Part shown: one piece after another, positions 11,230 through 39,689 of the stretch
Layout of the letters: each line of letters opens with the position of its first letter
Position numbering within the stretch: position 1 is the stretch's first letter
From: Mobula hypostoma
Taxonomy: Eukaryota
Direction: 5' to 3'
DNA: 64,000 bases
Assembly (NCBI RefSeq): GCF_963921235.1
Contig: NC_086097.1
Coordinates: 159,342,001-159,406,000, forward strand
Made by a program: the position numbers and the translations under genes
The notes under the pieces: model-generated
The model's database searches: none
What the model saw: only the letters and a program-made list of their open reading frames with translations
Told to the model about the DNA's origin: nothing

Positions 11230-12320
11230 GCTGGTATTGGAATTGTTTTATTATTGTCACATATACCAAGATAGAGTGAAAAACTTGTCTTGCATACTGA
11301 TTACACAGATCAATTCATTACACAATGCATTGAGGTAGAACAAGGTAAAATAATAACAGAATACAGAATAGAGTGTAACAGCAACGGTTCAGGTAAACAA
11401 CAAAGTGCAAGATCTTCATGAGCTGAATTGAGAGGTCAAGAGGCCATCTTACTGTAAAAGAATATTATTAGCAATTTTTAGAGACAGGGAATTGAGATTT
11501 TAAAATGCTGAACGATTATAAATAGAAGTGATGAGTGGATCTGTAGGGAGCAGTTTGCCACAAATTATCAAGCTGTGGCATCATAACTGACTGCTCCAGC
11601 ACCCATTGCTCCTGAAACACACTGGCACGGCACTACCCCATACGTTTCATTAGAGAATGGTCTAATGTATTCTGCTTCCCAATAGAATGCTCAACTTTGA
11701 ATTATTTCTTAATAAAGATGAGATTGATACTAAAAGAGCTTCTCAAATAAAGTGAATAACAATATACCATGGATAAAACAGTATACTATTAAATGGTTCC
11801 TTCACTATTATTGTGTCAAATATTGAAAAGTAATTGGAAATTAGTTTATTATTGTCATGTGTATAGGGATATGGTGAAAATCCTTGTTTCAAAACATAAG
11901 TACAATACATCAAGTTAGTGCAACAGGAAAAGCAATAGCAGAATATAGTGTTACAGTTATAGACAAAGAACGGTGCAGACAGATAATTAGATACAAGTAC
12001 CAAGACAAGGTAAATTGTAAGGTTGAGAGAATTCATCTTCATCATACAAGAGGTCTGTTCAAGAATTTTGTAACAGTAGTATAGAAGCTGTCCTCCAGCC
12101 TGCTGGTGCATGTTTTTGAGATTTTTTTTATCTTCAACTGATAGAATTGAGGAGTAGAGAGGATGCCCAGGGTGGGTGAGATTCTGGCTGCTATCTTGAA
12201 GCAGAGTGAAGAGTAGATGGAGTCCACAGAGCAGATGTTAATTTCCATGATGTGCTGAGCTGAACTCACAACTCTCTGCAGTTTCTCATGGTCCTGGGCA
12301 GAGCAAATAATATACAAACA
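11230..12320 (-). mobile_element. Two Rex1/Babar 3' fragments (11230-11455 and 11830-12320)
   Basis: CSAQDHEKLQRVVSSAQHI motif; reverse-strand GACAATAATAAAC plus CCAAT-type tails. Confidence 0.75.
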
Positions 12321-13099
12321 AACAGAGCATTTTCCATATTGTGCCATACACAAGACACTTGCCATAAGCATGGAGGAGAGTGCTTCAGTCAGGGAATCCA
12401 ACCTGTGTGGTTCTATCTTCTTCCTATTAATGTCCTTCATTGACTTGGGACAATAAGTTTGTGCATTTCAGGAAATAGCTACTGGCTTTGGCTCAACAAC
12501 AACAACACGAGATAACAATGCCAGAATGGCTCAGTTGATAGAATTGGATTGCGGTGAAATTTGAAGCACTACAATTGCTTGCCAAATGTGATGTTATCTT
12601 GCAATTTCAGAAGTAGCCTCATTTGTTTTACTTACTGACAGCTGGGCATGTTGCCAACCATGAAACAACCACCTGTCTCTTCAAACGACACTAGATTTAG
12701 ATCTCTTGCCCATGCTAGTCAGTCTTGCTGAGCAGTTTTTAACATGCATTTTTTTTGCATCGATTTCAATTTTATTTTTCCAAAATAAGTCTGGTGGTTT
12801 AACTGTATAACATGCTATTCAACAGGAAAGCAGTTAATATTCAAAATACTTAGTTCCTGTTGTTTCTCCCCCAACCCTGCTGCCTTGTCTCTCTGTCATA
12901 TGTTGAACATAACTGTATTTTATCATATTTTTCACACATTTTAATCATGAGAAGAAATAAAAAGAAAAATCAAATTTTGTTGCAGAGGTGCTTGTCAAGA
13001 AGAAGCTTTCTGATAAGGCCCTTCATCATATCTGAACAAAGATTAAAAGGAAGCCAAGAAAGGATTTGTTTGCTCATCAGGTTTGCTTTTTCAGGCACC

Positions 13100-13395
13100 A
13101 TCAGCATGGATATGGCCTTAGTAACAAAAGTACAAAGAACAAGTTCAATATGCCATCCAAAGTGTAATTATGGTGCATGACAGTGTGTTTGGAGTCTGGG
13201 GCACACTAGTAAAGTGTGGTGGAGGCAGTTACTCTCACCATATTTAATATGTCTATAGATCAACACTTCAATCAACAAGGCATTGAAGAACATGTGCTAA
13301 GTGTTGACTAATGGGATGAGTACAGATGGTTACTTGATGTCTGGCATAAACAGTGTGAGCTGAGTAGCTTGTTTCTATGCCGGGTGACTCTACAA
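13100..13395 (+). mobile_element. Very old CR1 3' end
   Basis: Degenerate GTGGTGGAGGCAG...TTTAA...GTTTCTATGC..TGACTCTA terminal pattern. Confidence 0.6.
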
Positions 13396-13729
13396 CTTAT
13401 TGCCCATATATTGAGGTCTACCAGCAAGTCATTCATGATATCCTATAGAGAGATACTGTTTTGACACCATTCCAGCAGTTTAACAGCTGTTTTGTACAAG
13501 TTATCAAACCTAACATTCTCCTACCTGCTCCATTTAAAAACAAAATTCATTCTCTTATTCCCTGTCCTAAAGACAGACATTGGGAACAAAAACACAGAAT
13601 GGCTTTATACATCATTTCACATGGTGTAATTTTTACTTCACTGACAACAGACATGCACTGGAGTACCAACTGCTGAATGGCACAGAAGACTTAACGTGTC
13701 AGACCCACAGTCAATTTCCAAAGGAGTTA

Positions 13730-13910
13730 GTAAAATCATATGGTCCGGAAACAGCGGTTCAGCCCACTGTTGGTACTGACAACAAAGCACTCATTTACAT
13801 TAGTTCTTCACTAATTCCATTTTATTCTTCCCTCATTCTCATCAATTCTTTCCAGATTCTAACATTCACGTACACATTAGGGAGAACTTACAGTGGCCAA
13901 TTAGCCTTCC
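13730..13910 (-). mobile_element. V-SINE 3' half with CR1-like tail
   Basis: Reverse complement of the 3' half of the SINE at 21894-22255. Confidence 0.65.
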
Positions 13911-14054
13911 AAATTGATCTTCTATTTGTAAACTCTACTGCGGAAGAGCAGGGCCATCCATTTGTGACATTCATTTCTCCACGTCTGACTTTGAAAGACA
14001 ATAAACTTACCTTTGACTAACCTTCAGTATTAACCGCAGTCCTCAACCTCAAAA

Positions 14055-14726
14055 GGAGGAGGAGGAGATGGCAACACGACGCAGCGCACGTGGCCACTTT
14101 GGTGGTGATGTCTGTTATTTGTCAAGTAGGGGACCGTGCACAATTCTGATTTGATGGAGACAGATGTGAGAGTACGGAGGAACATCTGGAGAAACTTCTG
14201 AAATGCCTGCTTCGCTGCTGCTGTTACTGTGTGGTCCGGAATCTCCAGAGGAGAAAGCTTGTTTTGGCGGCTGGGTGAGGTCGAAGGTGCTCGGCAGAGG
14301 ATGGCGCTCAGGAGGCTGTATCGAAGGAGCTGATCGGAGGCTCAAAGTTTTCGGACGGACGGACTCAGTGTCGGCTGTGGTCGGGTGTTTCCAATGCATC
14401 GGCAGTTGTCGGTGCCTGGAGGTTTATGGCAGGGAGTTTCTCCCTTTGCTGCCTGCTATCGGGGACTCGGGAGTCAATCGACTTGGGACTTTGAGACTTC
14501 TTTTTACTGTGCCCATGGTCTGTTCTTTATCAAATTATGGTATTGCTTTGCACTGCTGTAACCATATGTTATAATTATGTGGTTCTGTCAGTGTTAGTCT
14601 TTAGTTTGTCGTGTTTTTCTGTGATATCACTCTGGAGGAACATCGTATCATTTCTTAATGCATGCATGCATTTCTAAATGACAATAAACGAGGACTGAGT
14701 GTTCTCCTAATCTAATCAAAAAAAAA
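14055..14726 (+). mobile_element. Non-coding retroposon with purine-rich/YY1-like head and (TAATC)n+polyA tail
   Basis: Head GGAGGAGGAGGAGATGGCAAC, GC/CpG-rich body, and GACAATAAA..TAATCTAATC(A)n tail. Both ends are shared with 40831-41073. Confidence 0.75.
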
Positions 14727-14789
14727 CTAACCCCAACCTTGAATTGTGACACCTCTCCCTTCCCTCTCTCCATCCAATCTCCCCATTCA

Positions 14790-15470
14790 TTTAATGAAAA
14801 ATGTATTTCCTTTCCATTCTAAAACCATAGTACTGCAAATATATGCCCTTCATATACTTATCCCTCTTTTGATGATTCTTTGGAATATGCATTCATCACT
14901 TCCTTAGGCAGTACTTTCACCTGACTGCTACTCTATATATCTATCTCTCATCTCATTTCTAATTCTTCTGAAAAAAAAGTCACTTTTAATCTGAACCATG
15001 TGGTTATTGAGAATTCTACTCCAAGATATTGTTACTCCTCATTTCTTGAATCCATTTATGATTTATGAGTTTGAGCTAACCTGTCAATTTTTTTTAATCT
15101 TACTAAGCTCTGAGGAATAAAACCACTGCATCTTTTGTCCATCCACACAACTGAAATGTCTCACCTCAGGACCCATTTGTATTTTTCTCTCGATTTATAA
15201 AACAAGGGCTTGACATTTTTTTTCTACAAGTGTGGTGCCCTGAATTGAATATAATATCTTAATGAAGGTGTACACAATGTATCCAGTGCTTCTACTTACT
15301 GAGTCAAGGATCATCTATGCTTTATTAAAAAGGGTTTGCAACTAATTTTCATTTATATGCAATTTATGCTTATACATTCCTCAAGTCTCTTTTCTTGCAC
15401 TCTCTTTAATTTCGGCTATTTAATTAATATCCTTTTTCCACATCAGACTTCTGAAACTAATCTATTGTGA
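14790..15470 (-). mobile_element. Very old CR1 3' region
   Basis: Degenerate CTACAAGTGTGGTGCCCTGAATTGAATATAATA (reverse of the YCVQFWAPH motif) and TTAGGCAGTACTTTC (WNxLP). Confidence 0.55.
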
Positions 15471-15539
15471 AATTGAACATAGAATATAGAATAGTACAGC
15501 ACAGTACAGGCCCTTCGGCCCACAATGTTGTGCCGACCC

Positions 15540-18399
15540 TCAAACCCTGCCTCCCATATAAGCCCCCACCTTAGATTCCTCCATATACCTGTCTAGTAGT
15601 CTCTTAAACTTCACTAGTGTATCTGCCTCCACCACTGACTCAGGCAGTGCATTCCACACACCAACCACTCTCTGAGTAAAAAACCTTCCTCTAATATTCC
15701 CCTTGAACTTCCCACCCCTTACCTTAAAGCCATGTGCTATTGTATTGAGCAGTGGTGCGCTGGGGAAGAGGCGCTGGCTGTCCACTCTATCTATTCCTCT
15801 TATTATCTTGTACACCTCTATCATGTCTCCTATCACCCTCCTTCTCTCCAAAGAGTAAAGCCCTAGCTCCCTTAATCTCTGATCATAATGCATACTTTCT
15901 AAACCAGGCAGCATCTTGGTAAATCTCCTCTGTACCCTTTCCAATGCTTCCACATCCTTCCTATAGTGAGGCGACCAGAACTGGACACAAAACTCCAAGT
16001 GTGGCCTAACCAGAGTTTTATAGAGCTGCATCATTACATCGCGACTCTTAAACTCTATCCCTCGACTTGTGAAAGCTAACACCCCATAAACTTTCTTAAC
16101 TACCCTATCCACCTGTGAGGCAACTTTCAGGGATCTGTGGACATGTACCCCGAGATCCCTCTGCTCCTCCACACTACCAAGTATCCTGCCATTTACTTTG
16201 TACTCTGCCTTGGAGTTTGTCCTTCCAAAATGTACCACCTCACACTTCTCTGGGTTGAACTCCATCTGCCACTTCTCAGCCCACTTCTGCATCCTATCAA
16301 TGTCTCTCTGCAATCTTTGACAATCCTCTGCACTATCTACAACACCACCAACCTTTGTGTCGTCTGCAAACTTGCCAACCCACCCACCTACCCCCACATC
16401 AAGGTCGTTATTAAAAATCACGAAAAGTAGAAGTCCCAGAACAGATCCTTGTGGGACACCACTAGTCACAATCCTCCAATCTGAATGTACTCCCTCCACC
16501 ACCACCCTCTGCCTTCTGCAGGCAAACCAATACTGAATCCACCTGGCCAAACTATCCTGGATCCCATGCCTTCTAACTTTCCGAATAAGCCTACCGTGTG
16601 GATCCTTGTCAAATGCCTTACTATAATCCATATAGATCACATCCACTGCACTACCCTCATCTATATGCCTGGTCACCTCCTCAAAGAACTCTATCAGGCT
16701 TGTTAGACACGATCTGCCCTTCACAAAGCCATGCTGACTGTCCCTGATCAGACCATGATTCTCTAAATGCCCAGAGATCCTATCTCTTAGAATCTTTTCC
16801 AACAGCTTTCCCACCACAGAAGTAAGGCTCATTGGTCTATAATTACCCAGACTATCCCTACTACCTTTTTTGAACAAGGGAACAACATTCGCCTCCCTCC
16901 GATACCATTCCCGTGGACAACGAGGACATAAAGATCCTAGCCAGATGCTCAGCAATCTCTTCTCTCACCTCGTGGAGCAGCCTGGGGACTTATCTGTCCT
17001 AATGTATTTTAACAACTCCAACACCTCCTCTCCCTTAATATCAATATGCTCCAGAACATCAACCTCACTCATATTGTCCTCACCATCATCACGTTCCCTC
17101 TCATTGGTGAATACCGAAGAGAAGTATTCATTGAGGACCTCACTCACTTCCACAGCCTCCAGGCACATCTCCCCACCTTTACCTCTAATCGGTCCTACCT
17201 TCACTCATGTCATCCTTTTTTTCTTCACATAATTGAAGAATGCCTTGGGGTTTTCCTTTACCCTACTAGCCAAGGCCTTCTCATGCCCCCTTCTTGCTCT
17301 TCTCAGCCCCTTCTTAAGCTCCTTTCTTGCTTCCCTATATTCCTCAATAGACCCAGCTGATCCTTGCTTCCTAAACCTCATGTATGCTGCCTTCTTCCTC
17401 CTGACTAGATTTTCCACCTCACTTGTCACCCATGGTTCCTTCACCTCACCATTCTTTATCTTCCTCACCGGGACAAATTTATCCCTTACATCCCGCAAGA
17501 GATCTCTAAACATCAACCACATGTCCATAGTACATTTCCCTGCAAAAACATCATCCCAATTCACACCCGCAAGTTCTAGCCTTATAGCCTCATAATTTGC
17601 CTTCCCCAATTAAAAATTTTCCTGTCCTCTTTGATTCTATCATTTTCCATGATAATTATAAAGGCCAGAGAGCGGTGGTCACTGTCCCCCAGATGCTCAC
17701 CCACTGAGAGATCTGTGACCTGACCCGGTTCATTACCTAGTACTAGATCTAGTATGGCATTCCCCCGGTCGACTTGTCCACATACTGTGACAGGAATCCA
17801 TCCTGGACACACTTAACAAATTCTGCCCCATCTAAACCCTTAGAACTAATCAGGTGCCAATCAATATTAGGGAAGTTAAAGTCACCCATGATAAAAACCC
17901 TGTTATTTTTGCACCTTCCCAAAATCTGCCTCCCAATCTGCTCCTCTGTATCTCTGCTGCTACCAGGGGGCCTATAGAATACCCCCAATAGAGTAACTGC
18001 TCCCTTCCTGTTCCTGACTTCCACCCATGTTGACTCAAAAGAGGATCCTGCTACATTACCCACCCTTTCTGTAGCTGTAATAGTATCCCTGACCAGTAAT
18101 GCCACCCCTCCTCCCCTTTTTCCGGCCTCTCTATCCCTTTTAAAGCACTGAAATCCAGGAATATTGAGAATCCATTCCTGCCCTGGTGCCAGCCAAGTCT
18201 CTGTAATGGCCACCACATCATAATTCCATGTATGTATCCAAGCTTTCAGTTCATCACCTTTGTTCCTGATGCTTCTTGCATTAAGGTACACACATTTCAG
18301 CCCTTCTACCTTACTGTCTTTACACCGTTTATTCTGATTCTCTTTCCTCAAAGCCTCTCTGTATGTTCGATCTGGCTTTACTCTATGTACTTCTTTCAC
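15540..18399 (-). pseudogene. CR1 ORF2: APE endonuclease + reverse transcriptase, frameshifted
   Basis: Endonuclease motifs YLNARSI, AITETWL, MGDFNFP and DSDH; RT motifs YMDYSKAFDK, GVPQGSVLG and KFADDTK. Split across ORFs 17749-18399, 17582-17812, 17205-17609, 16965-17204 and 15540-16955. Confidence 0.95.
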
Positions 18400-18434
18400 T
18401 GCTCTATCGCTCTGGGTCCCATCCCCCTCGCAAA

Positions 18435-19376
18435 TTAGTTTAAACCCTCCCGAACCATGCTAGCAAACCTACCTGCAAGGATATTGCTCCCCCTTGAGTT
18501 CAGGTGCAACCCATCCAATCTGTACAGGCCCCACCTTCCCAGAAGAGATCCCAATGATCTAAAAGTCTAAAACCCTGCCCCCTGCACCAACTCCTCAGCC
18601 ACGCATTCAACTGTCATCTCCTCCAATTCTTACCATCTCTGTCACGTAGCACTGGCAGCAATCCTGAGAACGCCACCCTTGAGGTCCTGTTCTTCAGCCT
18701 TCTGCCTAATTCCCGAAACTCACACTTCAGGACCTCGTCCCTCTTCCTGCCTATGTCGTTGGTCCCAACATGTATCACGACTTCTGGTTGCTTTCCCTCT
18801 CGTACCAGGATGTCGTGCACCCGGTCAGAGACATCCCGGACCCTGGCACCCGGGAGGCAACAAACCATGCAGGTGTCCTTCTCATGTCCACAAAATCTCC
18901 TGTCTGCTCCCCTGACTATAGAATCTCCAATGACGACAGCTTTCCTCTTCTCCGTCCCACCCTTCTGCACCACAGGGTCAGACTCAGTGCCAGAGGCCCT
19001 GCCACCGTGGCTCACATCTGGCCGGTCATCCCCACCAACAGTATGCAGGACAGTAAACTTATTATTCAGGGGAATGGCTACAGGGGTGCTCTGCACTACC
19101 TGTCTGCTCACCTTCGCTTTCCCCCCCTCTGACTGTCACCCAACGTCGCGCTTCCGACAGCCTAGGTGTGACTACCTCCCTGTAGCTCTCATCTATGACT
19201 GCCTCATTCTCCCTTATGAGTCAAAGGTCATCCAGCTGCTGCTCCAGATTCCTTATACAGTCTTCCAGATCGCCCAGCTGTATGCACTTCTGGCAGATGT
19301 GACTCTGCGGGAGAGGGGCGTCCCCCCAAGACTGCCACATCTCACATGACAGGCACATCACCGTCTCAGGGGACAT
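18435..19376 (-). pseudogene. CR1 ORF1: zinc finger/leucine zipper + SGNH esterase, disrupted
   Basis: CLSC...CQKCIQLGDLEDCIRNLEQQL, then SGNH blocks IGDSIV, LPGAR, HVGTND and DGLHLN (about 18500-18516). Premature stops at 19221 and 18614. Confidence 0.9.
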
Positions 19377-20399
19377 TGTAAAAACTAACTGCGAGCTAGC
19401 TTGTCCTCCGCCTCTTCTCGTCGAAGCCTCAAAGCTCCACTCCTTCACTGGCCCACTCACACTCTGACCGCTTTGCTTGAGCTATCCCTCTATTTATCTG
19501 TTTGAGCTTTTCAAAATGTTTGGTCACCTGACCTCGACTGCCCAATCAGCTGCTTTCTGCTGAGTCTGAGCTATTCAAATCTTGATTGTCTAATTAACAG
19601 CTTATTGCTGATCTATTCAAATCTTGATTGACTTGATTGCACAGACCAACTGCCAAAACTGCCAGAATCTCTTGAGTCAAAGCCTCAAAGCTGAGGCTTT
19701 GATGTGCATTTTCAGTTTATGATCAATTTCCAGTTCTGAGCCACGTGGAGAAGAAAGCCAAAACATTCAATAACAAGTATTGTGTTTCAGGCAAATTTAA
19801 GAAAATCTATTACATTTAGTAAATTGTACTTGCAATCAATTTTATGCTAACTTCTATCAGTGAGGAATTTGGATCAAGCACTTTCGGTGTGTAATTTACT
19901 CAGATATCTAATAATTTTCTAGTACCACATGCATACTGCATCTCTTCATGCAACATCCAGACCAACATAAATTGAAGTTCAGTGCTATATCTTCCAATGA
20001 ATTAGAACAGTCTTATTAAAATCAGGAGCACATTGTGCTGGTTTGGCTTTTCTCCTCAGTATGAAAAAAGACAACCCTCTGACATTGAGCTACCTGATTT
20101 GGCAACTTCATACCTGACTGTAAGTTACACAAACACCTTCCAAAATAATGTGTGTTTAAACTAACAGGGACTTTTTAATGCAGCATTCGCCTGCTGAGCT
20201 ACACATGGGACCCTCATTAGCAACAACAAGGAATTGGAATTGGAGTTGCTTTATTATTGTCACATCTACTGAGATACAGTGAAAAGCTGGTCTTGCGTAC
20301 TGTGCAGAATTAAAAGTGTAACAGCTACAAACAATAACATGCAACCTATAACTCCACTGTTGGAAGCATTATTATGGTCATGACTGGTGTGATCCTGTA

Positions 20400-21035
20400 A
20401 TGTCAGAGCAGGGGCTAAGCTATTCCCATTTACCTCCAGATGAAGTTCAGGGAGAAGAATTCCCACCGGCTGAACACTGCATTAGGCATGTCCACATTCA
20501 CTCCACCAAGTTTTATTGATGCACTAGAGAAAGCATTCTGTCTGGATGCATAATGGCTTGGTATGCTAGCTATTCTGCACATGACCTGCAGAGAGTTGTG
20601 GACACAGCTCAACACATCACAGGAACCAACCTCCCCTCTGTGAATTCTGTCTATACATCTCACTGCCTGTCAGTAGAGCAGCCGGCATAATCTAAGACCC
20701 CACCCGAACCAGACATTCTCTCGCCTCCCCTCACCCATTGTGCAGAAGATACATAAGCAGGAAAGCAAGTACCACCAGACTCAAGGATGGGTTCTATCCC
20801 AATGTTACCATTTGAATGGACCTTGTATGATAAAATGGACTGTTGGCCTCATAATTCACCTCTCTGTGATCTTGCACTTTATCGTTCACCTACACTGCAC
20901 TCTTTTGATAGCTTTTACATTATATTGTGCATTATTATTATTTTACCTGGTTCTGCCCCCATGCATGATTTGGTCTGTATAAACATTATGCAAGACAAGC
21001 ATAATGTGCGAATAATAAACTCATATCAATACCAG
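20400..21035 (+). mobile_element. Rex1/Babar 3' fragment
   Basis: ESILSGCIMAWY-type motif at about 20527; tail AATAATAAACTCATATCAATACC. Confidence 0.8.
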
Positions 21036-21061
21036 TACATCAACAGCTCATCATTTCCAAT

Positions 21062-21701
21062 CATAGTCATAGTCATAGTCATTGTCATACTTTATTGATC
21101 CTGGGGGAAATTGGTTTTTGTTACAGTTGTACCATACATAATAAATAGTAATAGAACCATAAACAGTTAAATAGTAATATGTAAATTATGCCAGGAAATT
21201 ATGAAACAAGTCCAGGACCAGCCTATTGGCTCATGGTGTCTGACCTTCCAAGGGAGGAGTTGTAAAGTTTGATGGCCACAGGCAGGAATGACTTCTTATG
21301 ACGCTCTGTGCTGCATCTCGGTGGAATGAGTCTCTGGCTGAATGTACTCCTGTGCCCACCCAATACATTATGTAGTGGATGGGAGACATTGACCAAGATG
21401 GCATGCAACTTGGACAGCATCCTCTTTTCAGACACCACCGTGAGAGAGTCCAGTTCCATCCCCACAACATCACTGGCCTTACGAATGAGTTTGTTGATTC
21501 TGGTGGTGTCTGCCACCCTCAGCCTGCTGCCCCAGCACACAACAGCAAACATGATAGCACTGGCGACCACAGACTCGTAGAACATCCTCAGCATCGTCCG
21601 GCAGATGTTAAAGGACCTCAGTCTCCTCAGGAAATAGAGATGGCTCTGTCTCTTCTTGTAGACAGCCTCAGTGTTCTTTGACCAGTCGAGTTTATTGTCA
21701 A
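21062..21701 (-). mobile_element. Young Rex1 LINE 3' fragment
   Basis: Uninterrupted frame DNKLDWSKNTEAVYKK..LYFLRRLRSF...SFLPVAIKLYN; tail CAATAAAGT(ATGACT)n. Confidence 0.9.
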
Positions 21702-21893
21702 TGCTGTAACCACCAAGATGAGTGATATTTTGAGGGATGACCTTCAGCCACGTTCCTGTACCTGGACTGCTCTCTCCACAGAAGTCAAGGTCACATTGAC
21801 TCTGAAATTCCTTGCCATTCAACTTTCCCACTGTTCTCCGTCATTACCACGGCATCAATGGGATTACCTAAACACTTCATACCTGAAGCAAGT

Positions 21894-22255
21894 GGGCAGC
21901 ACATGGGTGCAGCTAGTCGAGGTACTGCCTCACTGCGCCAAAGATCTGGGCTCATTCAGGACCCTAAGTTCTGTCTGTGTGGACTTTGCTTTGTGCTGGT
22001 GTTAGTTTCCATGGGTGCTCCAGTTGTCCTCCATATCCCAAGGCAGTTAGCGGGTTAATTGGTCACTAAATATAACTCCCAGTGTGTAGGAGAGTGGTAG
22101 AATGGGGAGCGGCTGGCGGGGGTGCTAGAGATGAGAAAATGGGGAGATAAGAATGGGATTAATGTTGGATTATTGTAAATGGATGCTTGAATAGTTACAC
22201 TGGACTCAGTGGACCAAAGGGCCCGTTTCCATATTATATCTCTCTAAGACTCTGA
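21894..22255 (+). mobile_element. Full-length V-SINE with CR1-derived tail (HE1-like architecture)
   Basis: tRNA head GGGCAGCAC...GCTAGT, V-domain TTTCCATGGGTGCTCCAGTTGTCCTCC, and a CR1-like end GGACCAAAGGGCCCGTTTCC...CTCTAAGACTCT. Confidence 0.8.
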
Positions 22256-22365
22256 TTTCATCTACTTTTAATGAGGTGTAAGGAGCATCTCAGGAAATGG
22301 GATTTTCCAACATTTCTGACTTTTCACAAGTACAGACAGCCTTCCTCTACAGCTGTCAGCCCATA

Positions 22366-22656
22366 TAGGCATCCGTTAGTCTCATGAGACCATGGATTTG
22401 CGCCTTGGAAGGTTTCCAGGGCGCAGGCCTGGGAGACCAACAGTTGTCCATGCTGCAAGTCTCCCCTCTTCATGCCACCAATGTTGTCCAAGGGAAGGGC
22501 ATTAGGACCCATACAGCTTGGCACTGGTGTCATCGCAGTGCGATGTGTGGTTAAGTGCCTTGCTCAAGGACACAACACGCTGCCTCAGTCAAGGCTCGAA
22601 CTAGCGACCTTCGGATCACCAGCCGACGCCTTAACCACTTGGCCACGCGCCAACAC
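22366..22656 (-). mobile_element. tRNA-derived CORE-type SINE
   Basis: Reverse strand shows A box TGGCCAAGTGG, B box GTTCGAGCC and CORE-like GTGTCCTTGAGCAAGGCACTTAACC. The 8-bp TSD AGCCCATA lies at 22358-22365 and 22662-22669. Confidence 0.85.
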
Positions 22657-23149
22657 ATACGAGCCCATAAGGGCTCTTCTTAATCATCTGAAACCTTTTT
22701 ATGAACAAAAAAACTATACCTGCTCCTTCAGTACACAGCTTCCTGTGGACCAAGAGAAGAATTTCCTTGTTATGTGCCTCCCTTGTTATTAGAAAGCACA
22801 CAGATCAATTTTAATCCTGCCCAGAGTATGTACCAGCAGAGTGCAATACAAATACAAGAGTAGCCAACGTGTCAGGACAGCAGTGGAGAACATTGTAGGT
22901 ATCCTGAAAATAAGGTTTGGTATCCTGAGTCCTTCAGATTACTGCAGCATGCATCCATGTGATTTGTGTGCTTCCCAATCTTGCAACTGAAGCCAGGAAC
23001 CTGAGAGCAGAAGCTAGAGCTTGGAGTTGTGCAGGAGCAAGAAATGGATGAAGATAGCTTCTGGAGGATATCCTGTTCAACGTTCGAAGACTCAAGTCCG
23101 AGCTGAGTAGAGAAGGCTTTTAGTAAGGAGCATAAGAAACCCATAGTTC

Positions 23150-23625
23150 CCGGTGCAAATCAGCAAGATTTATGAAAATGCTACTGGGACTTGAGGGGCT
23201 AAGTTACAGAGAGAGGTTGAGCAGCGAAGACTTTATTCATTGGAGCATGGGAGAATGAAGGGTGATATTACAGAGGCGTATTAAATCATTAAAGGCATAG
23301 ATAGGGTGAGTGAGTACAGTCCTTTCAGTGTTTGCCCTCTAGATCTTGGGGAGTTAAGAACTAGAGGACAACGGTATAGGATGAAAGGGGAGAGATAAAA
23401 CGAACAATTGTTTCAACCAGAGTGGTCTGTTTATGAAATGAGCTGACAGAGAGCATGACTAAGGCAGTATATTAACAACACTTAAAAGGTTTTTACACAG
23501 GTACCTATGTTGGGAAGGTTTAGAGGGAAGCAGGGTAATTGGACTAGTTTAGAAGGGAATCTTGGTCAGCATGGACCAGCTGGGTTAAAAAATGTCTTTC
23601 CATGCTGTAAGACTTGATGACTCTA
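23150..23625 (+). mobile_element. CR1 3' fragment
   Basis: GLEGLSYRERL motif and a CR1 3' UTR. Confidence 0.8.
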
Positions 23626-23709
23626 ACACCGTTGTAGCATATCAATGACAATTTATTGACTTTTGCCCTTGAAATTTTGTTCTGCAATTTCTTCTTTGAC
23701 ATCTGTAAC

Positions 23710-25815
23710 TTAGAGTCATAGAACACTATAGAACAGAAACAGGCCCTTTGGCCCATCTAGTCCATGCTGAATCATTAATCTGCCTAGTCCCATCAATTTG
23801 CACCCAGACCACTGCCCTCCATTCCCCTCCTATCCATGTACCTATCCAAAATCCCCTTAGATGTTCAAATCAAACATGCATCCATAACTTGCGCTGGCAG
23901 CTTGTTCCACACTCTCGTCACCCTCCTGAGTGAAGAAGTTCCTCTTTGTGTTTCTCTTAAATATTTCACCTTTCACTCTTAACAAATAACCTCTAGTTGT
24001 AGTCCCACCCAACCTCAGTGAAAAAAAAGCTCTGCTTGCATTTACACTGTCTATACCTCACATAATTTTGTATACCTCTATCAAACCTCCCCTCAATCTT
24101 CCATCTTCGTGGGACTAAAATCCTAACCTATTTAACCTTTCCATATAACTAAGGTCCTCCAGTTCCGGCAACATCCTCACAAATTTTCTCTGCACTCTTT
24201 CAATCTTATTTACATCTTTCCTGTAGATAGGTGACCAAAACTGCACACAATTAGGCTTCACCATTGTGCTATGCAATTTCAACATTACATCCCAACTCCT
24301 GTATTCAATTTATTGATTTATGAAGGCCAATGTGTCAAAAACTTTTTTGAAGACTTTATCTACCTGTGATGACAATTGCTAGAAATTATAGATCTGTATT
24401 TCCAGATCCTTCTGTTCTACTGCTCTTGCCAGTGCCCTAAACACCCACTGTGTTAGACCTGTTCTGGATGGTCTTCCCAAATTGCAACACTTGTCTGCAT
24501 TAAATTCCATCTGCGACTTTCAGCCCATTTTCCCAGCTAGTCCAGATCCCATTGGAAAGTTTAATAGTTATCTTCACTGTCTACTACACCACCAAACTTG
24601 ATGTCATCCACAAATTTGCTGATCCAGTTTACCACATTATCTGCCAGATTGCTGATATAGATGACAAACAACAATAGAGCCATTACTGATCCCTGTGCCA
24701 CACCACTAGTCACAGGCCTCAGAATAGAGAGGCAACCATCTATTACCACTTTCTGGCTTCTCCCGCAAAGCGAATGTCTAATGCATTTTACTACCTTATC
24801 TTGAATGCCAAGCAACTGATCCTTCTTGACCAACCTCCCATGCGGATCATGTGAAACAACTTATTAAAGTACCTGTAGACAACATCCACTGTCTTGCTTT
24901 TATCAAGCTTCTTGGTAACTTCCCCGCAAAAACTCTATAAGATTGGTTAGACATGATGTTGACTATCCCTAATCAGTTCCTGTCTATCCAAATACTTATA
25001 TATGCGGTCCTTTAGAAAACCTTTCTATAATTTACCCACTACTGATGTCAGACTCATTGGCCAATCATTTCCAGGCTTATTTTTCGAGCCTTTCTTAAAC
25101 AATGAAACAATATTAGCTATTCTTCAATCATCTGTCACCACGCCAATGGTTAAGGATGTTTTAAATATTTCATCTGGGGTCCCTGCAGTTTCTGCACTTG
25201 CCTCCCACAGGTCTGAGGGAACACCTTGTCAGGCCCTGGGAATTTATCCACACTAATTTGCCTCAAGGCAGCAAACACCTCCTTCTCTGTCACCTGTCTT
25301 GGGTCCGTGACATTGCCGCCGCTTTGTCTCACTTGTATAGACTTTGTGTCTGTCTCCTGAGTACATACAGATGGAAAAAGAAAAAATTTCACTTTTGAAG
25401 GCCTTCCACTTACCAAGTACAACTTTGCCAGAAAACAACCTGTCCCAATCCATACTTGTCAGATCCTTTCTGATAGCACCAAAATTAGACTTCCTCCAAT
25501 TTAAAATCTCAACTTGAGGACCAGATCTATCCTTTTCCATAATTACCTTGAAACTAATGGCATTATGATCACTAAATGCAAAGTGTTCCCTTACAAAAAC
25601 TTCTGTAACCTGCCCTGCCTCATTTCCTAATAGGAGATCTAGTGTCAGACTCTCTCTAGTACTGATTAAGGAAACTTTCCTGATCACATTTGACAAATTC
25701 TTTCCCATCCAGCCCTTTTACAGTATGGGAGTCCTAGTCAATATGTGGAAAGTTAAAATCACCAACTGTCACAATCTTATGTTTCCTGCAACAGTCTGCA
25801 AGCTCTACAGATTTG
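23710..25815 (-). mobile_element. CR1 ORF2 fragment (endonuclease to 3' end) with internal deletions
   Basis: DFNFPHID, SDHNAISF, PVTSGVAQGSV and KFVDD motifs; (TTCTATAG)-type tail at about 23715. Confidence 0.9.
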
Positions 25816-26720
25816 TAGTGTGTTTGTAAGGAGTGAGATTGGGATTGGAGCGATTGGAGTGTGAATTCGAGATGGTTGATGTCTCATTGGCTGATCACAA
25901 TGAAATGATCAGAAGTAGGCAGAAGACCAGAACGGCTGTCCAGGAAGAGGAGGAGGGTTGAAAACAGGAGAAGGTGTCATTGGAGCATGCTGGAGAGTCC
26001 TTGCCAAAGAAATAGGCATGGAGGTGGAGCTGGCTGAAGAAGAGCTCAGCATCGTGGCGGGCATGGAACTCGCTGTATATCGGCAAGATCTGATGTAGAT
26101 TGGGAGACTGCTCCGCTGAGTACCTCTGCTCAATCCTCCAGAAAAAGCGGGATCTCTCTGCGGCCACCCATTTTAATTCAACTTCCCATTCACATTCCAA
26201 CATGTCAGTCCATGGCCTCATCAAACTGCCATGATGATTCCACATTCAGCTTGCAGGAGCAACACCTTATATTCTATCTGGGTAGCGTCCAATCTGATGG
26301 CATGAACATTGATTTCTTGAACTTCTGGTAATGCCCCCTCCCTCTCCTTCACCATTCCCTATTCCCATTTCCCTCTCTGACCTTATCTCCTTACCTGCCC
26401 ATCACCTCCCTCTGGTATTCCTCCGCCTTCCCTTTCTTCCAAAGACTTCTGTCCTCTCCTAACAGATTCCCGCCTTCTCCAGCCCTTTATCTCTTTGACA
26501 AATTGACTTCCCAAGCTCTTTACTTCACCCGCCCCCTCTTCCAGTTTCACCTATCATCTGCTGCCTTGTACTTATTCCTCACCCCACCTTCTTACTCTGA
26601 CTTCTTGTCTTTTTTACCTTCAGTCCTGATGAAGGGTCTCGGCCTGAAATGTTGACGGTTTACTCTTTTCCACAGATGCTGCCTGGCCTGCTGAGTTCCT
26701 GCAGCACTTTGTGTGTGTTA
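25816..26720 (+). mobile_element. Penelope-like element: GIY-YIG C-terminus and terminal repeat (+, 26074-26720) with an inverted N-terminal piece (-, about 25816-26073)
   Basis: Plus strand: YIGK...RLGDC.AEYL...ATHFNSTSHSH...LQEQHLIFYLGSVQSDGMNIDFLNFW*. Minus strand: EFHARHDAELFFSQLHLHAYFFGKD. Confidence 0.85.
26621..26658 (+). ncRNA. Minimal type I hammerhead ribozyme motif in a Penelope terminal repeat
   Basis: CAGTC-CTGATGA-A-GGGT(CTCG)GCCT-GAAA-T-GTT-GACGG. The CUGANGA and GAAA boxes are intact, stem II is present, and stem I (CAGTC/GACGG) has one mismatch. Confidence 0.7.
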
Positions 26721-26739
26721 CAACTTTCTCATTCCTCAA

Positions 26740-27520
26740 TTTTACCCATAAAGCCTCAATAGATGAGTTCTCCAGCTTGTTTTGTACTGCATGAGATCAT
26801 TTTACACAAAATCAATTATCTTGGCATTGTTAATACCAATTAAGTAGGTGTACTGTAAATCAATTGGAGAAATGAATGATGTGTGTTTTTGCAAATATAT
26901 TGTGTTGTCTTGGTTTCCACCTATATCCTAACAACCAGTTTCCTGAAATCAGAGACATGGTATTGGTGATGGCTTGGTCCCACTTTAATGTGTTATTGCT
27001 TAATTTTAATAATATAAATAACTCACTCTCCAACAGCAAAAACTATACACACTTTCCTTTGAAAAAAAACTGTTGTTAAATCTGTTAATACTTCAGTAAT
27101 CACTCTTTCCCAATGTGAATTTGCCACTCTGAGAAGCTTTGTTTGATAATGGTTTTGTCAGTGAATTGTATGCATTATTTATAAATCCTATCTGACTTTC
27201 TAAATAATCCTTCCATTCTATCTGATCTTCAAGTCGGCTAAATCATAATTGCTTCTGTTTAGTGAACTGTTCTACTTGGGTGGAACTTGGCTTTATTTAA
27301 GACCTAAACAATGGGATAATATAGAGGGTCACTTGGTACCTCAGGATAGTTATAATAAGACTGTAATTCTTCTTTGGCTTAGATTTTTAGCTTTAATTTA
27401 GACATCTGTTAAATATTCTATCCTTGACTTGATTCTCTGCCTATGAAGCTACTGCTGACTAGAATGCTTGTCATTAACATAGGAAGATCAGGAATTGTCT
27501 GCTTTGAGGATACATCTATT
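26740..27520 (+). pseudogene. Heavily eroded Harbinger transposase fossil (tentative)
   Basis: KSIGEMNDVCF, KYIVL, GFHL..QFPEI, LLGWNLALFKT*TM and SYNK occur in the order and approximate spacing of HARBI1-like motifs. Confidence 0.45.
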
Positions 27521-28089
27521 TGAAGGTTAATTAGCAAATGGATGGAAACACTTGTCTGATCTCGCAAGAGTGGAATTTAAATTGGCAAAGATGCGGTTTT
27601 CTGTGGAACAAAAACAAAATCAAGAATATCCTATGTTTAAGCGCCACTGCAATCATTCTCAGTGGTTAATGTCCAAACTAAAACATAATGTTTGAAAGCT
27701 GTAAAATGAAACTGAAGAATCAGGTTTTAAACTGTCATGAAGATCTGTTGCAAGTTTCAAGACTCCAATATTTTTGAACAGATTTGCTGAACAAAAGCTG
27801 CTAAGAATTGAAACACTTAATACATTTAAGACATCTTTCTGAATAGTTCTTTTGTTACCTGGTATTAATATATAGTCCACATAATTATGCCTTCAGACAT
27901 GGTTCAGTAATCTTCTCAGGCGACCACTTGAGAATCTGAATGAGGTTTATCCACTCCTATTCTAAAATGCCTGATGGGATAATCTGGCAAATGAAGATTG
28001 TGTTTCTGCTGGGGAAGGATTTATTCATCTCCAAATGCCTAGACCTAGGATTCAATGTCTCACTTTATCACTAGAAAACTTGACTTCCT

Positions 28090-28760
28090 GAACAACGGAT
28101 GACAATCAGGAAGGATAAGCAGAATCACCTTCATCTCAATTATCCTCAGTACTGCTGTCCCACAATTCTGCATCATCAGCTCCCTACTCTATTCCTGAAA
28201 CACTCAGGACTGGCCACATTCTGTACCAATTCCATCTACAAGTTTGCAGATGATACCACCATTGAGGGTTGTATATCAAATAATAACGAGTTGACGTATA
28301 GGATAGAGATAGAGAGCCTGGTGACAAGGTGTTATGACAATAATCTTTCCTTCAATGTCAAAACAACAAATGAGCTGGTTGGTGACTTCAGGAAGGGGCA
28401 GGGTACCCGCTCCTGTTTAGATCAACTGTCCAGAGGCTGAGAGGGTTGAAAGCTTCAAGTCATGAGGAGCGAACAATAATTGCCCATCCTGGTCCAACCA
28501 TGTTGACACCATGGGCAAACAAAAAGGTCACCAATGCCTCCACTTCCTTAGGAGGCTAAAGAAATTTGGTGTGGTCCCTTTGACCCACACCAGTTTTTAA
28601 TCAATGCACCATGGAACGCATCCTATTCAATTGCATTATGGCTTGATATGGCAACTGTCCTGCCCATGACTGCAAGAAATTGCAGAAGGAGTGGACAAAG
28701 CACGGAAACTAGCCTCTCCTCCATGGACTCTGTCTACCTTGTCTTGATAAAACCACAGCA
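28090..28760 (+). mobile_element. Rex1/Babar RT fragment
   Basis: NSIYKFADDTTIEGCISNNNE motif. Confidence 0.85.
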
Positions 28761-29107
28761 AGGGTACTAATCATTCTTCCAATGCTCACATCACAATCAT
28801 TTCCATTTATCTTTGTCCAGTAAAGATTTGAAAATTACTGAAATATTACCAAACCAAGAAATACTTCTGAATATGGCACGATCAGACTGAAGCGTCTTAA
28901 TATGTGGAGACAACTTTTTTTGGGCTCCTTCTGTTTGTATGGGTTAGTCAATAAACCTTTCAATAGAATGCAAAGGTCTCCAGAAACAATCCTCAGCACT
29001 GATATTCAAGTCCAAACACAACATTTTACATGATAATGAGGTAAAATGGTCCATTATAAGTAAAATATGATATGGAAGAGATTTCCACACCCTTTCTTAC
29101 CATTACT

Positions 29108-29400
29108 GTGCCACGGTAGCATGGTAGTTAGTGCGAGGCTATTACAGCTTTGGGCATTCCAGAGTTCGGAGTTCAATTCCGGCGCCTTTGGTCACAAATA
29201 TGCACGTCCTTCCTGTGGAAAGTGTGGGTTTTCCCCAGGTGCTCCTGTTTCCTCCTGCAGTCCAAAAGTGGACGTACCAGATTGGCTAATTAGTCGTTTG
29301 TCCTGTGATTAAAGTAGGGAAAATTGGGTTTGTCAGCAGTTGCTGGTGTGGTGTGGTTCCAAGGGCTGGAAGGGTCTATTGTGTGCTGTATCGCAAAGTA
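29108..29400 (+). mobile_element. V-SINE
   Basis: A box GGTAGCATGGTAG, B box GTTCAATTC, and V-domain GGGTTTTCCCCAGGTGCTCCTGTTTCCTCC. Confidence 0.8.
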
Positions 29401-29401
29401 A

Positions 29402-30513
29402 AGAATCAGAATCAGGTTTATTATCACCGGCATGTGATGTGAAATTTGTGAACTTAGCAGCAGCAGTTCAATGCAATACATAACATAGAAGAGAAAAATC
29501 AATCAATCAATCAATTACAGTATACATACATTGAATAGATTAAAAAATGTGCAAAAACCAGGAATACTGTATAATAAAAAATGTGAGGTAGTGTCCAAGG
29601 GTTCAACGTCCATTTAGGAATCGGATGGCAGAGGGGAAGAAGCTGTTCCTGAATCGCTGAGTGTGTGCTTTCAGGCTTCTGCACCTCCTGCCTGATGGCA
29701 ACAGTAAGAAAAGGGCATGCCCTGGGTGTTAGAGGTCTTTAATAATGGATGCTGCCTTTCTGAGACACCGCTCCCTAAAGGTGTCCCAGGTACTTTGTAG
29801 GCTAGTGCCCAAGATGGAGCTGACTAGATTTACAACCCTCTGCAGCTTCTTTTGGTCCTGTGCAGTAGCCCCTCCATACCAGACAGTGATGCAGCTTGTC
29901 AGAATGCTTTCCACAGTACAACTATAGAAGTTTTTGGGTGTATTTGTTGACATGCCAAATCTCTTCAAACTCCTAATGAAGTATAGCCACTGTCTTGCCT
30001 TCTTTATAACTACATCGATATGTTGGGACCAGGTTAGATCCTCAGAGATCTTGACACCCAGGAACTTGAAACTGCTCACTCTCTCCACTTCTGATCTCTC
30101 TATGAGGATTGTTATGTGTTTCATTGTCTTACCCTTCCTGAAGTCTGTAATCAGCTCTTTTGTCTTCCTGATGTTGAGTGCCAGGTTGTTGCTGCGGCAC
30201 CACTCCACTAGTTGGCATATCTCACTCTTGTACGCCCTCTCGTCACCACCTGAGATTCTGCCAACAATGGTTGTGTCATCAGCAAATTTATTAGATGGTA
30301 TTTGAGCTATGCCTAGTCACACCGTAATGGGTATATAGAGAGAAGAGCAGTGGGCTATGCACACACCCCTGAGGCGCACCAGTGTTGATTGTCAGCAAGG
30401 GGGATGTGTTATCACCAATACACACAGATTGTGGTCTTCCAGTTAGGAAGTCAAGGATCCAATTGCAAAGGGAGGTATAGAGGCCCAGGTTCTGCAACTT
30501 CTCAATCAGGATT
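29402..30513 (-). mobile_element. Rex1/Babar LINE (RT C-terminal half to tail)
   Basis: [15 protein letters not shown] and the 159-aa ORF 29729-30208; (GATTCT)n tail. Confidence 0.92.
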
Positions 30514-30529
30514 ATCAAGAAAAGAAATT

Positions 30530-31005
30530 TTACTGCAACCTCTGGTGTCCACATGATCTCTGTCTCAGATCAGACTGAAGTCAGAACAGCTTTCAAAAGC
30601 GTGAACCTTCACAAGGCTTTAAGCCCTGATGATATACCAGGTAGGGCACTGAAAACCTGTTCCAACTAATTAGAGACGCACAAGGACATCTTCAGTCTAT
30701 TACTGCTGCAGCTGGAGGTTCCCACCTGCTTCAGTCATGCCAGTGCCCAAGAAAATCAGAGTAAGCTGCTTCTGTGACTGTCACTCAGTTACACTCATAT
30801 CTACTGTGTTGGAGTACTTTGAGAGGTTGGTCATGGCCAGAACCAATTCCTACCTCAGCAAGGACCTGGACCTATTGGCAATTTGCCTATTGCCAGAATA
30901 AGACTACAGCAGATGCGGTTTCGGCCTTGAACTATCTGGGCAACTGCAGTAGCTACGTCAGACTGCTGTTTATTGATGACAGCTCAGCATTTAACACCTC
31001 ACCAT
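30530..31005 (+). mobile_element. Rex1/Babar RT N-terminal half
   Basis: [34 protein letters not shown] and [15 protein letters not shown]. Confidence 0.8.
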
Positions 31006-31339
31006 TGTGACTTAAAATATTAGTTATGTTTTTCTTCCCATACATGTGGCTTGGACTGCTGAGCACTTACAGCATTTTTCAAACTTATTCCAGCTTTTGA
31101 CAGGTATTTAGCATGCCTGTGTCCATTGGACAATGGCAGGAGTCGGTCTACAAAGATTCAAGCAGAAATTACAGTAATATACCAGTACATAAACACCACA
31201 TTAAACACTATTTTGCATGCCATTGGATTGCGTAGAGAAAGTTTTAAAGAAGCGAGTGGGGACAGTCAGCACATTTTGCTTCAGTTCCCAAGGAGGTATT
31301 AGATTGTGCTTAATTAGGACTAATAAAAAGAAGTTAGGT

Positions 31340-38859: not shown

Positions 38860-39689
38860 TTCAAACAAGCTTGATGCATTTTGGAAACAAGTCCTGTGGT
38901 CTGATGAAGTTAAATTAGCTTTTTGGCTGCAATGAGCAAAGGTATGTTTGGAGAAAAACGGGTGCAGAATTTCATGAAAAGAAACCCTCTCCAACTGTTA
39001 AGCACGGGAGTGGATCGATCATGCTTTGGGCTTGTGTTGCAGTCAGTGGCACTGGGAACATTTCACTGGTAGAGAGAAGAATGAATTCAATTAAATACCA
39101 GCAAATTCTGGAAGCAAACATCACACTGTCTGTAAAAAAGCTGAAGATGAAAAGAGGATGGCTTCTACAACAGGATAACAAACCTAAACACACCTCAAAA
39201 TCCACAATGGGCTACCTCAAGAGGCGCAAGCTGAAGGTTTTGCTTTGGCCTTCACAGTCCCCCGACCTAAACATCATCGAGAATCCGTGGATAGACCTCA
39301 AAAGAGCAGTGCATGCAAGACAGCCCAAGAATCTCATAGAACTAGAAGCCTTTTGCAAGGAAGAATGGGCGAAAATCCCCCAGACAAGAATTGAAAGACT
39401 CTTAGCTGGCTACAAAAAGCGTTTACAAGCTGCAATACTTGCCAAAGGGGGTGTTACTAAGTACTGCCATGCAGGGTGCCCAAACTTTTGCTCCAGGCCC
39501 TTTTCCTTTGTTTTTGTTATTTTTAAACTGTAAAAGATGGAAATAAAAAATTTTTCTTGCTTAAAATATTAAAGAAATATGTTATCTTTAACTTTATGCC
39601 TTTTGGAAATCAGTTCATCTTTTACTCACTTAGCTATTCACAGTAACAGAAATTTTGACCAGGGGTGCCCAAACTTTTGCATGCCACTG
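38860..39689 (+). mobile_element. Tc1 (DD34E) transposon, left part missing
   Basis: VLWSDE, QQDNKPKH and SPDLNIIENPW, with exactly 34 residues between the second D and E. The right TIR ends ...GCATGCCACTG followed by TA (39690-39691). Confidence 0.95.

What the first reader, a model, noticed from the sequence alone, without database searches (positions are those of the whole stretch)
21030..23125. Hidden Harbinger/HARBI1-like transposase that reassembles after removing three nested insertions
Seen: the spacer DNA between Rex1 (21062-21701), V-SINE (21894-22255) and CORE-SINE (22366-22661) translates to Harbinger-type motifs in the right order. Deleting the CORE-SINE plus one AGCCCATA copy restores a continuous frame: QEMGFSNISDFSQVQTAFLYSCQPI|RALLNHLKPFYEQKN. 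Known: PIF/Harbinger transposases have the order ALxxxxKV..L.FYA, GFP.V.GAIDxTH, NRKG.HS.NVQ, YN..H...R..VE..IG.LK.RF, C..LHN. Inference: an old, catalytically dead copy (first D lost, E retained in AVENI) that is invisible in the ORF track.
Basis: partly seen in the sequence, partly recalled or inferred. Interest (0 to 1): 0.7.

Follow-up and report, generated by a model that had tools for sequence, protein, structure and literature searches.

The report
Dead Harbinger transposase split by retroelements
This is the decayed remnant of a cut-and-paste transposon enzyme gene in a shark or ray genome, broken apart by three younger jumping elements; it is real but ordinary genomic debris with no sign of present function.

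Summary
Four spacer pieces (21041-21061, 21703-21893, 22256-22365, 22670-23126, + strand) align in order to PIF/Harbinger transposases. Joined, three of them score 37.4 bits on a profile built without the window, against at most 22.7 in 200 codon shuffles and 24.9 in 312 window tiles. The best single match is a Narcine bancroftii HARBI1-like protein (22 of 38 identical, E 3.6e-8 within the window). Two related species lack 22358-22661 exactly, a true empty site for the SINE plus one AGCCCATA. Corrections: the second catalytic D is gone too (about 34 codons deleted), about 14 codons are missing at the V-SINE, and the N-terminus is lost under a fourth LINE. It is not a HARBI1 pseudogene (AU p 0.007). 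It shows single-copy depth and is no more conserved than its flanks. No TIR, TSD or Myb partner was found. Best reading: a neutrally decaying fossil of an elasmobranch Harbinger lineage (0.70). Live rival: a dead copy of a domesticated Harbinger-derived host gene (0.22). Low interest.

The parts
20486..21034 (+). Fourth insertion, not in the finding: older Rex1-type LINE 3' piece directly upstream; ends approximate; the transposase N-terminus is not found beyond it
   Evidence: Translation resembles the same LINE C-terminus (family label recalled); self-matches elsewhere in the window; repeat-level depth; upstream search for the first 66 residues of P0236 negative, 158 of 300 random stretches score as well
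21041..21061 (+). Harbinger piece 1 (7 codons, the R-L-R-F-S-equivalent stretch)
   Evidence: Adds 5.5 bits (P0236) or 4.7 bits (shark/ray profile) when joined; random 37-mers do as well in 9 and 15 of 1000; not significant with the non-shark profile, 272 of 1000
21062..21702 (-). 5'-truncated Rex1-type LINE fragment with a short-unit repeat tail near 21062-21090; CAAT at 21058-21061 and 21699-21702 as probable 4-nt duplication or microhomology
   Evidence: PF09004 E 5.5e-9 (that this domain marks Rex1-type RT ends is recalled); summed depth about 1-2 million against about 13 for single-copy bins in X1; organism D's contig piece starts at 21699
21703..21893 (+). Harbinger piece 2: best preserved block (TAL..VKVT.TL.FLA), then frameshifted
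   Evidence: tblastn P0236 22/38 identical, E 3.6e-8 in the 64-kb window; hmmsearch 20.8 bits
21894..22255 (+).
   Evidence: A-box-like match only; tail 72% like the 3' end of the minus-strand LINE at 23707-23764; spanned by contigs of all 4 runs laid, so older than their split
22256..22365 (+). Harbinger piece 3: GF..I..F..VQ.A block; first catalytic D column is Leu at 22345-22347; ends in the first copy of the TSD (22358-22365)
22366..22661 (-). Young tRNA-derived SINE (CORE-type label recalled)
   Evidence: A and B boxes on the minus strand; absent in organisms C and D, present in A and B; summed depth about 800,000 in X1
22662..22669 (+). Second copy of the 8-nt target-site duplication AGCCCATA
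22670..23126 (+). Harbinger piece 4: stop at 22790-22792; about 34 codons deleted near 22823 including the second D; E kept at 22886-22888; frameshift near 22937-22955; C..L.NLA block, acidic tail, TAG TAA at 23121-23126
   Evidence: single-copy depth, 13-14 in X1 for bins 22673-23006

Best explanation
A PIF/Harbinger DNA transposon of an elasmobranch lineage inserted here long ago and died. When active, its DDE transposase would have been carried into the nucleus and onto the terminal repeats by a separate Myb-like protein and would have cut and pasted the element (known mechanism, not shown here). The copy then decayed neutrally: substitutions, a stop, frameshifts, deletion of the second-D region and loss of the first D. 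Retroelements landed in it in sequence. The V-SINE-like element came before organisms A-D split (shown). The CORE-type SINE came after C and D branched off, with an 8-nt TSD (shown by empty sites). The Rex1-type LINE probably also came after the split (inferred). It makes no working protein today.
For: Collinear profile match above shuffles and window tiles with references fetched independently of the window (37.4 bits against max 22.7 of 200 and 24.9 of 312); native order best of 24 permutations. Falls in the elasmobranch Harbinger clade, 99/99 support. Empty sites in 2 of the 3 other species laid. Differences from orthologues are no lower than in flanks: organism D 36/659 and 35/604 against 15/522, 12/272, 17/348 and 28/312. 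8 of the 9 listed differences I could place in frame change the residue, with 66% expected for random transitions. The second-D deletion is shared with C and D (1 and 3 gaps in the spanning pieces). A second, separate Harbinger fossil at 62427-62257 in the same 64 kb (22.4 bits) points to a dispersed family. The relic keeps the catalytic E that its three nearest proteins have each replaced, by Q, K and R.
Against: No TIR/TSD pair above chance (2 found, 0-2 in 10 shuffles) and no Myb hit in the near flanks, so element ends are not shown. Depth is single-copy at 80% likeness: no close sister copies. The nearest proteins (P0236, P0212, P0140) look like non-catalytic host genes. Most of the shark-profile score comes from piece 2 alone (42.5 of 54.6 bits), and the unspliced alignment did not find the SINE boundaries by itself. 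The 9 differences are a subset chosen by the tool (586 rows of that table not shown).
Confidence: 0.7

Rival explanations
1. Dead copy of a domesticated Harbinger-derived host gene: the lost orthologue (unitary pseudogene), or a duplicate or retrocopy, of the gene that survives in Narcine as XP_069759287. It would have served as a non-catalytic nuclear partner of Myb/SANT proteins, like HARBI1, and was lost in this lineage before A-D split.
For: P0236 is the clear best single match (61.7 bits against 51.3 for the next of 125) and shares distinctive residues (WTAL, EVKVT, LxFLA, H.KP, N after the E column). The relic groups with P0236, P0140 and P0212 at 97/99. P0236 has four RefSeq accessions for one protein and no cluster mates and lacks the second D and the E. 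The relic has single-copy depth.
Against: The sister link to P0236 is weak (90/56) on a branch of 2.56 changes per column. AU tests do not reject leaving the relic outside that trio (p 0.35) or joining it to the multicopy Scyliorhinus family (p 0.20). The trio is only 57-59% identical, so its orthology is unproven. The relic keeps E. A second fossil lies 39 kb away.
Confidence: 0.22
2. The fossil has been exapted as non-coding regulatory DNA.
For: Orthologous DNA is present in all 4 runs laid; exapted Harbinger fossils exist in vertebrates (PMC9004415, passages).
Against: It is no more conserved than its flanks and tolerated insertions after the species split.
Confidence: 0.04
3. A pseudogene of HARBI1 proper.
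For: Same superfamily; annotation pipelines name all such proteins 'putative nuclease HARBI1'.
Against: 17-22% identity to the four HARBI1-clade rows against 34% to P0236 and P0140 over 172 columns; AU test rejects the grouping, p 0.0073.
Confidence: 0.02
4. Chance motif matches in spacer DNA.
For: Single pieces fail library-scale searches; the middle block is invisible to the non-shark profile.
Against: the empty-site join found in other species is the join that restores frame and register.
Confidence: 0.01

Closest known systems
PIF/Harbinger DNA transposons (PHIS superfamily; transposase Pfam PF13359 DDE_Tnp_4)
   Same: Order and spacing of transposase blocks over profile columns 61-323 of 377; E kept; acidic tail.
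   Different: First D replaced, second D deleted, stop and frameshifts; N-terminal 60 or so codons, TIRs, 3-nt TSD and Myb/SANT ORF not found.
Narcine bancroftii 'putative nuclease HARBI1' XP_069759287-290 (P0236), with Pristiophorus P0140 and Heptranchias XP_067829836 (P0212)
   Same: Best matches: 34%, 34% and 29% over 172 columns; one clade with the relic at 97/99.
   Different: They are intact ORFs of 395-418 aa that lack the catalytic E; the relic is broken and keeps E.
HARBI1, the jawed-vertebrate domesticated Harbinger transposase (PMC9392472, passages)
   Same: Derived from the same transposase superfamily.
   Different: Separate clade; grouping rejected.
TE protein fossils fragmented by younger insertions (Frith 2022, PMC9004415, passages)
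   Same: Same kind of object and the same need for frameshift-aware alignment.
   Different: The fossils highlighted there are strongly conserved and exapted; this one is not conserved above its flanks.

Membership tests
PIF/Harbinger transposon | Transposase homologous to the Harbinger DDE family | tested here: met
   seed references verified as PF13359 (6 of 6)
PIF/Harbinger transposon | Intact D-D-E triad (needed for activity) | tested here: not met
   Leu / deleted / Glu; 19 of the 39 reference rows keep D, D and E
PIF/Harbinger transposon | Terminal inverted repeats, mostly under 60 bp (PMC4482050) | tested here: inconclusive
   2 candidate pairs in 12000-21061 x 23126-32000, both in stretches that I read as LINE DNA, against 0-2 in 10 shuffles; nothing notable; age and insertions could erase them
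PIF/Harbinger transposon | 3-nt TSD, TWA (CWG for the Nuwa I group) (PMC4482050) | tested here: inconclusive
   Ends unknown; the joint TIR+TSD scan was at chance level. The PHIS subgroup therefore cannot be assigned by TSD
PIF/Harbinger transposon | Second ORF with Myb/SANT domain | tested here: inconclusive
   No Myb hit in six frames of 19400-20500 and 23100-23750 (12 translations); farther flanks not scanned
PIF/Harbinger transposon | Dispersed copies | tested here: inconclusive
   Single-copy depth at 80% likeness; one other, separate fossil in the window; no genome held
HARBI1 (domesticated gene) | Groups with HARBI1 orthologues | tested here: not met
   AU p 0.0073
Domesticated Harbinger-derived gene of the P0236 type | Nested among P0236, P0140, P0212 | tested here: inconclusive
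   Best tree nests it; exclusion not rejected, p 0.35
Domesticated Harbinger-derived gene of the P0236 type | Conserved synteny with the intact gene | not testable with these tools
   No eukaryotic genome context available
Domesticated Harbinger-derived gene of the P0236 type | Open frame under purifying selection now | tested here: not met
   Stop, frameshifts, insertions; 8 of 9 placed differences non-synonymous
SINE insertion by target-primed reverse transcription (22366-22661) | TSD and orthologous empty site | tested here: met
V-SINE and CORE-SINE superfamilies | Central V or CORE domain | not tested

The most novel reading that the evidence does not exclude
The relic is the pseudogenised orthologue of an undescribed elasmobranch-specific domesticated Harbinger gene (intact and non-catalytic in Narcine, Pristiophorus and Heptranchias), lost in this lineage before A-D split. 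It would mark the birth and lineage-specific death of a transposon-derived host gene, one of a small family of such shark and ray genes beyond HARBI1.
Probability: 0.15. Interest if true: 0.5.

Novelty: new member of a known kind. Interest (0 to 1): 0.2.

Why it matters
As a fossil it matters little. It documents that Harbinger transposons were active in the ancestry of this shark or ray lineage. One survey did not detect them in elephant shark, the cartilaginous fish it names (PMC9179366, passages). The SINE presence/absence site (A+B against C, D) is a clean phylogenetic marker. If synteny ties the locus to the Narcine gene, it becomes a dated loss of a domesticated transposase. The side finding may be worth more than the relic: shark Harbinger-derived proteins that are 92% identical across genera and lack the catalytic E look like undescribed domestications.

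Tried and rejected
Library searches with single pieces found nothing real. Pfam gave no DDE_Tnp_4 hit for 6 pieces. The word-indexed search with 21700-21894 gave 0 of 59 candidates at E<=1. phmmer of 22661-22987 against 1.84 billion proteins gave 2 hits, both tandem-repeat artefacts. PDB gave 0, and plasmids gave 1 chance hit. Rfam and ARAGORN found nothing in the window. The motif scan of viral contigs found 0. No whole genome is held. No Atlas look-up was obtained, so the language-model comparison is open. The unspliced frameshift-aware alignment ranked the region first among 82 and 48 tiles, but aligned through or jumped the insertions and did not recover their ends. A tempting N-terminal look-alike near 20400-20485 was rejected: the upstream best score was matched by 158 of 300 random stretches. 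A third candidate fossil at 56367-56251 (6.7 bits) was not supported by the frameshift-aware alignment and was dropped. AU tests could not separate placements among elasmobranch groups (p 0.10-0.35, six tests). Earlier scan notes: 0 hits. Paper searches listed no description of shark-specific Harbinger domestications; only titles and abstract starts were seen, apart from the four papers read as passages. The supplement of PMC9179366 (fish Harbinger proteins) was listed but not opened, and it could bear on subfamily naming.

Full report
Setting. The window is repeat-rich vertebrate DNA: its long ORFs read as LINE and Tc1-type pieces (labels recalled), with no Rfam or tRNA gene hit. No genome is held. 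A shark or ray source is inferred from the best homologues, not shown.

The insertions. AGCCCATA occurs twice on the + strand, at 22358-22365 and 22662-22669. The DNA between has A and B boxes on the minus strand. Laying the contigs of four runs (organisms A-D, 80% likeness) gave the most direct result. In C and D a single contig covers up to 22357 and resumes at 22662 with consecutive coordinates, so the 304 nt of SINE plus one repeat copy are absent. In A and B the contigs run into the SINE. The 21894-22255 element is spanned in all four runs, so it is older; it has no TSD over 5 nt, and its tail resembles the 3' end of a neighbouring LINE. The 21062-21702 piece is a minus-strand LINE end (PF09004, E 5.5e-9) bounded by CAAT on both sides. 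D's contig piece begins at 21699, which fits an empty site, but the first 81 letters of that contig were not shown. A further LINE end of the same type lies at about 20486-21034.

Is it Harbinger? Single pieces fail unbiased library searches, which is why it is invisible to annotation. I fetched references independently of the window: a short motif scan of metagenomes gave 109 loci; 6 of 6 ORFs tested hit PF13359; one served as seed for 120 listed proteins, mostly from a newt. A profile of 133 of these sequences (P proteins of at least 300 aa, unique metagenome ORFs of at least 150 aa), run on all six frames of the window, put 62382-62215, 21712-21816 and 22832-22936 on top at 13.5, 11.4 and 8.7 bits; the next hit had 2.0. 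With a frameshift-aware aligner of my own, three pieces joined (785 nt) aligned in one path over columns 61-323 at 37.4 bits. The 200 codon shuffles had mean 15.3 and maximum 22.7, and 312 equal-sized tiles had maximum 24.9. A second search brought in shark and ray proteins. Narcine P0236 matched 21703-21816 at 22/38 identity, E 3.6e-8 within the window, and was best of 125 on the joined sequence. A 9-protein elasmobranch profile, chosen after seeing these scores, gave 54.6 bits against a maximum of 25.5 in 200 shuffles, and the native order was best of 24 permutations (49.9 against 42.5-45.9). However, 42.5 bits come from piece 2 alone, and the unspliced run did not find the SINE ends by itself.

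The joins. At the CORE-type SINE the join dictated by the TSD and the empty sites is in frame and in register. It beat 7 other offsets for 3 of 4 elasmobranch profiles and was reached by 0, 0, 0 and 2 of 500 random joins; the non-shark profile saw nothing there (221 of 500). At the Rex1-type piece, joining 21061 to 21703 adds 7 codons in frame (9 and 15 of 1000 random pieces do as well; 272 of 1000 with the non-shark profile). At the V-SINE about 42 nt are missing by my count. The gene therefore does not reassemble cleanly. The first D column is Leu, about 34 codons including the second D are deleted, E is kept, a stop and frameshifts remain, and the N-terminal 60 or so codons were not found upstream.

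Function today. Depth over 22673-23006 is single-copy (13-14 in X1, as in unique flanks). Differences from A in the two relic-spanning pieces (the first includes the V-SINE) were: B 15/673 and 7/629 (flank 10/597); D 36/659 and 35/604 (flanks 15/522, 12/272, 17/348, 28/312); C 56/634 and 46/732 (flanks 17/351, 31/402). Of the 11 listed differences inside the Harbinger pieces I could place 9 in a sure frame; 8 change the residue, with 66% expected for random transitions. The tool showed only 40 rows of that table and left 586 out. Nothing suggests constraint. The deletion of the second-D region is shared with C and D, so the copy was dead before they split.

Placement. In a 40-row tree the relic sits in the elasmobranch clade (99/99), with Heptranchias P0212, Pristiophorus P0140 and Narcine P0236 (97/99), on a very long branch and with under half of the columns filled. 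Grouping with HARBI1 is rejected (p 0.0073). None of six alternative placements is rejected (p 0.10-0.35). The three nearest proteins lack the catalytic E and are 57-59% identical to each other; P0236 has four accessions for one protein. They may be host genes, which keeps open the reading that the relic is a dead domesticated gene. Against this, the relic keeps E, and a second unrelated Harbinger fossil lies at 62427-62257.

Comparison with what is known. Autonomous Harbingers carry TIRs, a 3-bp TSD, a DDE transposase and a Myb-like ORF whose product imports the transposase and binds the TIRs (PMC9179366, PMC9392472, PMC4482050; passages only). Homology is met and the triad is not. TIR/TSD pairs were at chance level, and no Myb domain was found in the near flanks. 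TE protein fossils number about 100,000 to 500,000 per vertebrate genome, and fragmentation by younger insertions is well known (PMC9004415, passages). HARBI1 is the only transposase-derived vertebrate Harbinger gene named in the passages I read; searches listed no paper on shark-specific ones.

Verdict. Observation confirmed and interpretation supported, with corrections. Shown: homology, order, one insertion with its empty site, loss of two catalytic residues, lack of excess conservation. Inferred: origin as a transposon copy (0.70) rather than a dead domesticated gene (0.22), and the timing of the Rex1-type insertion. New member of a known kind; interest 0.2.

Noticed in passing
window 62427-62257, minus strand: A second Harbinger transposase fossil (C-terminal R-C-x-x-x-x-G-x-x-L-Q-Y-S ... 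V-V-I-C-C-M block): 22.4 bits with the shark/ray profile, tblastn E 2.7e-5 to Chiloscyllium P0168 within the window.
   Followed up: partly
proteins P0165/P0243-P0245/P0168/P0246-P0249 and P0191/P0250/P0239/P0251-P0255: Two groups of shark 'putative nuclease HARBI1' proteins, mostly one per species, 85-93% identical across Carcharodon, Scyliorhinus, Rhincodon and Chiloscyllium, outside the HARBI1 clade and lacking the catalytic E in the 6 rows checked: candidate undescribed domesticated Harbinger genes. By contrast P0190 is a multicopy family in one species with D, D and E kept.
   Followed up: partly
proteins P0112, P0124, P0126, P0128, P0132, P0148, P0166, P0141, P0145, P0158: Further coelacanth, amphibian, turtle and bird Harbinger-derived proteins with altered triads form clades apart from HARBI1; possible additional domestications.
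   Followed up: no
window 22358-22661: SINE presence/absence marker: present in organisms A and B, absent in C and D.
   Followed up: yes
window about 20486-21034, plus strand: A fourth, older Rex1-type LINE end abuts the relic's 5' piece, tail to tail with the younger one 27 nt away.
   Followed up: partly
window 19660-20280: Single-copy stretch somewhat more conserved than the relic (15/522 to D, 17/351 to C); no Pfam hit of note.
   Followed up: no
window 38919-39533, plus strand: 204-codon open frame that reads like the C-terminal half of a Tc1-type transposase (label recalled).
   Followed up: no
window about 15100-19400, minus strand: Near-full-length CR1-type LINE with long open pieces (15540-16964, 17749-18459, 18614-19135) (label recalled); its endonuclease gives a recurrent false match to the Harbinger second-D motif at 17967-17851.
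   Followed up: no
window 19566-19633: Imperfect 42-nt tandem duplication; one contig of run X5 skips one unit.
   Followed up: no
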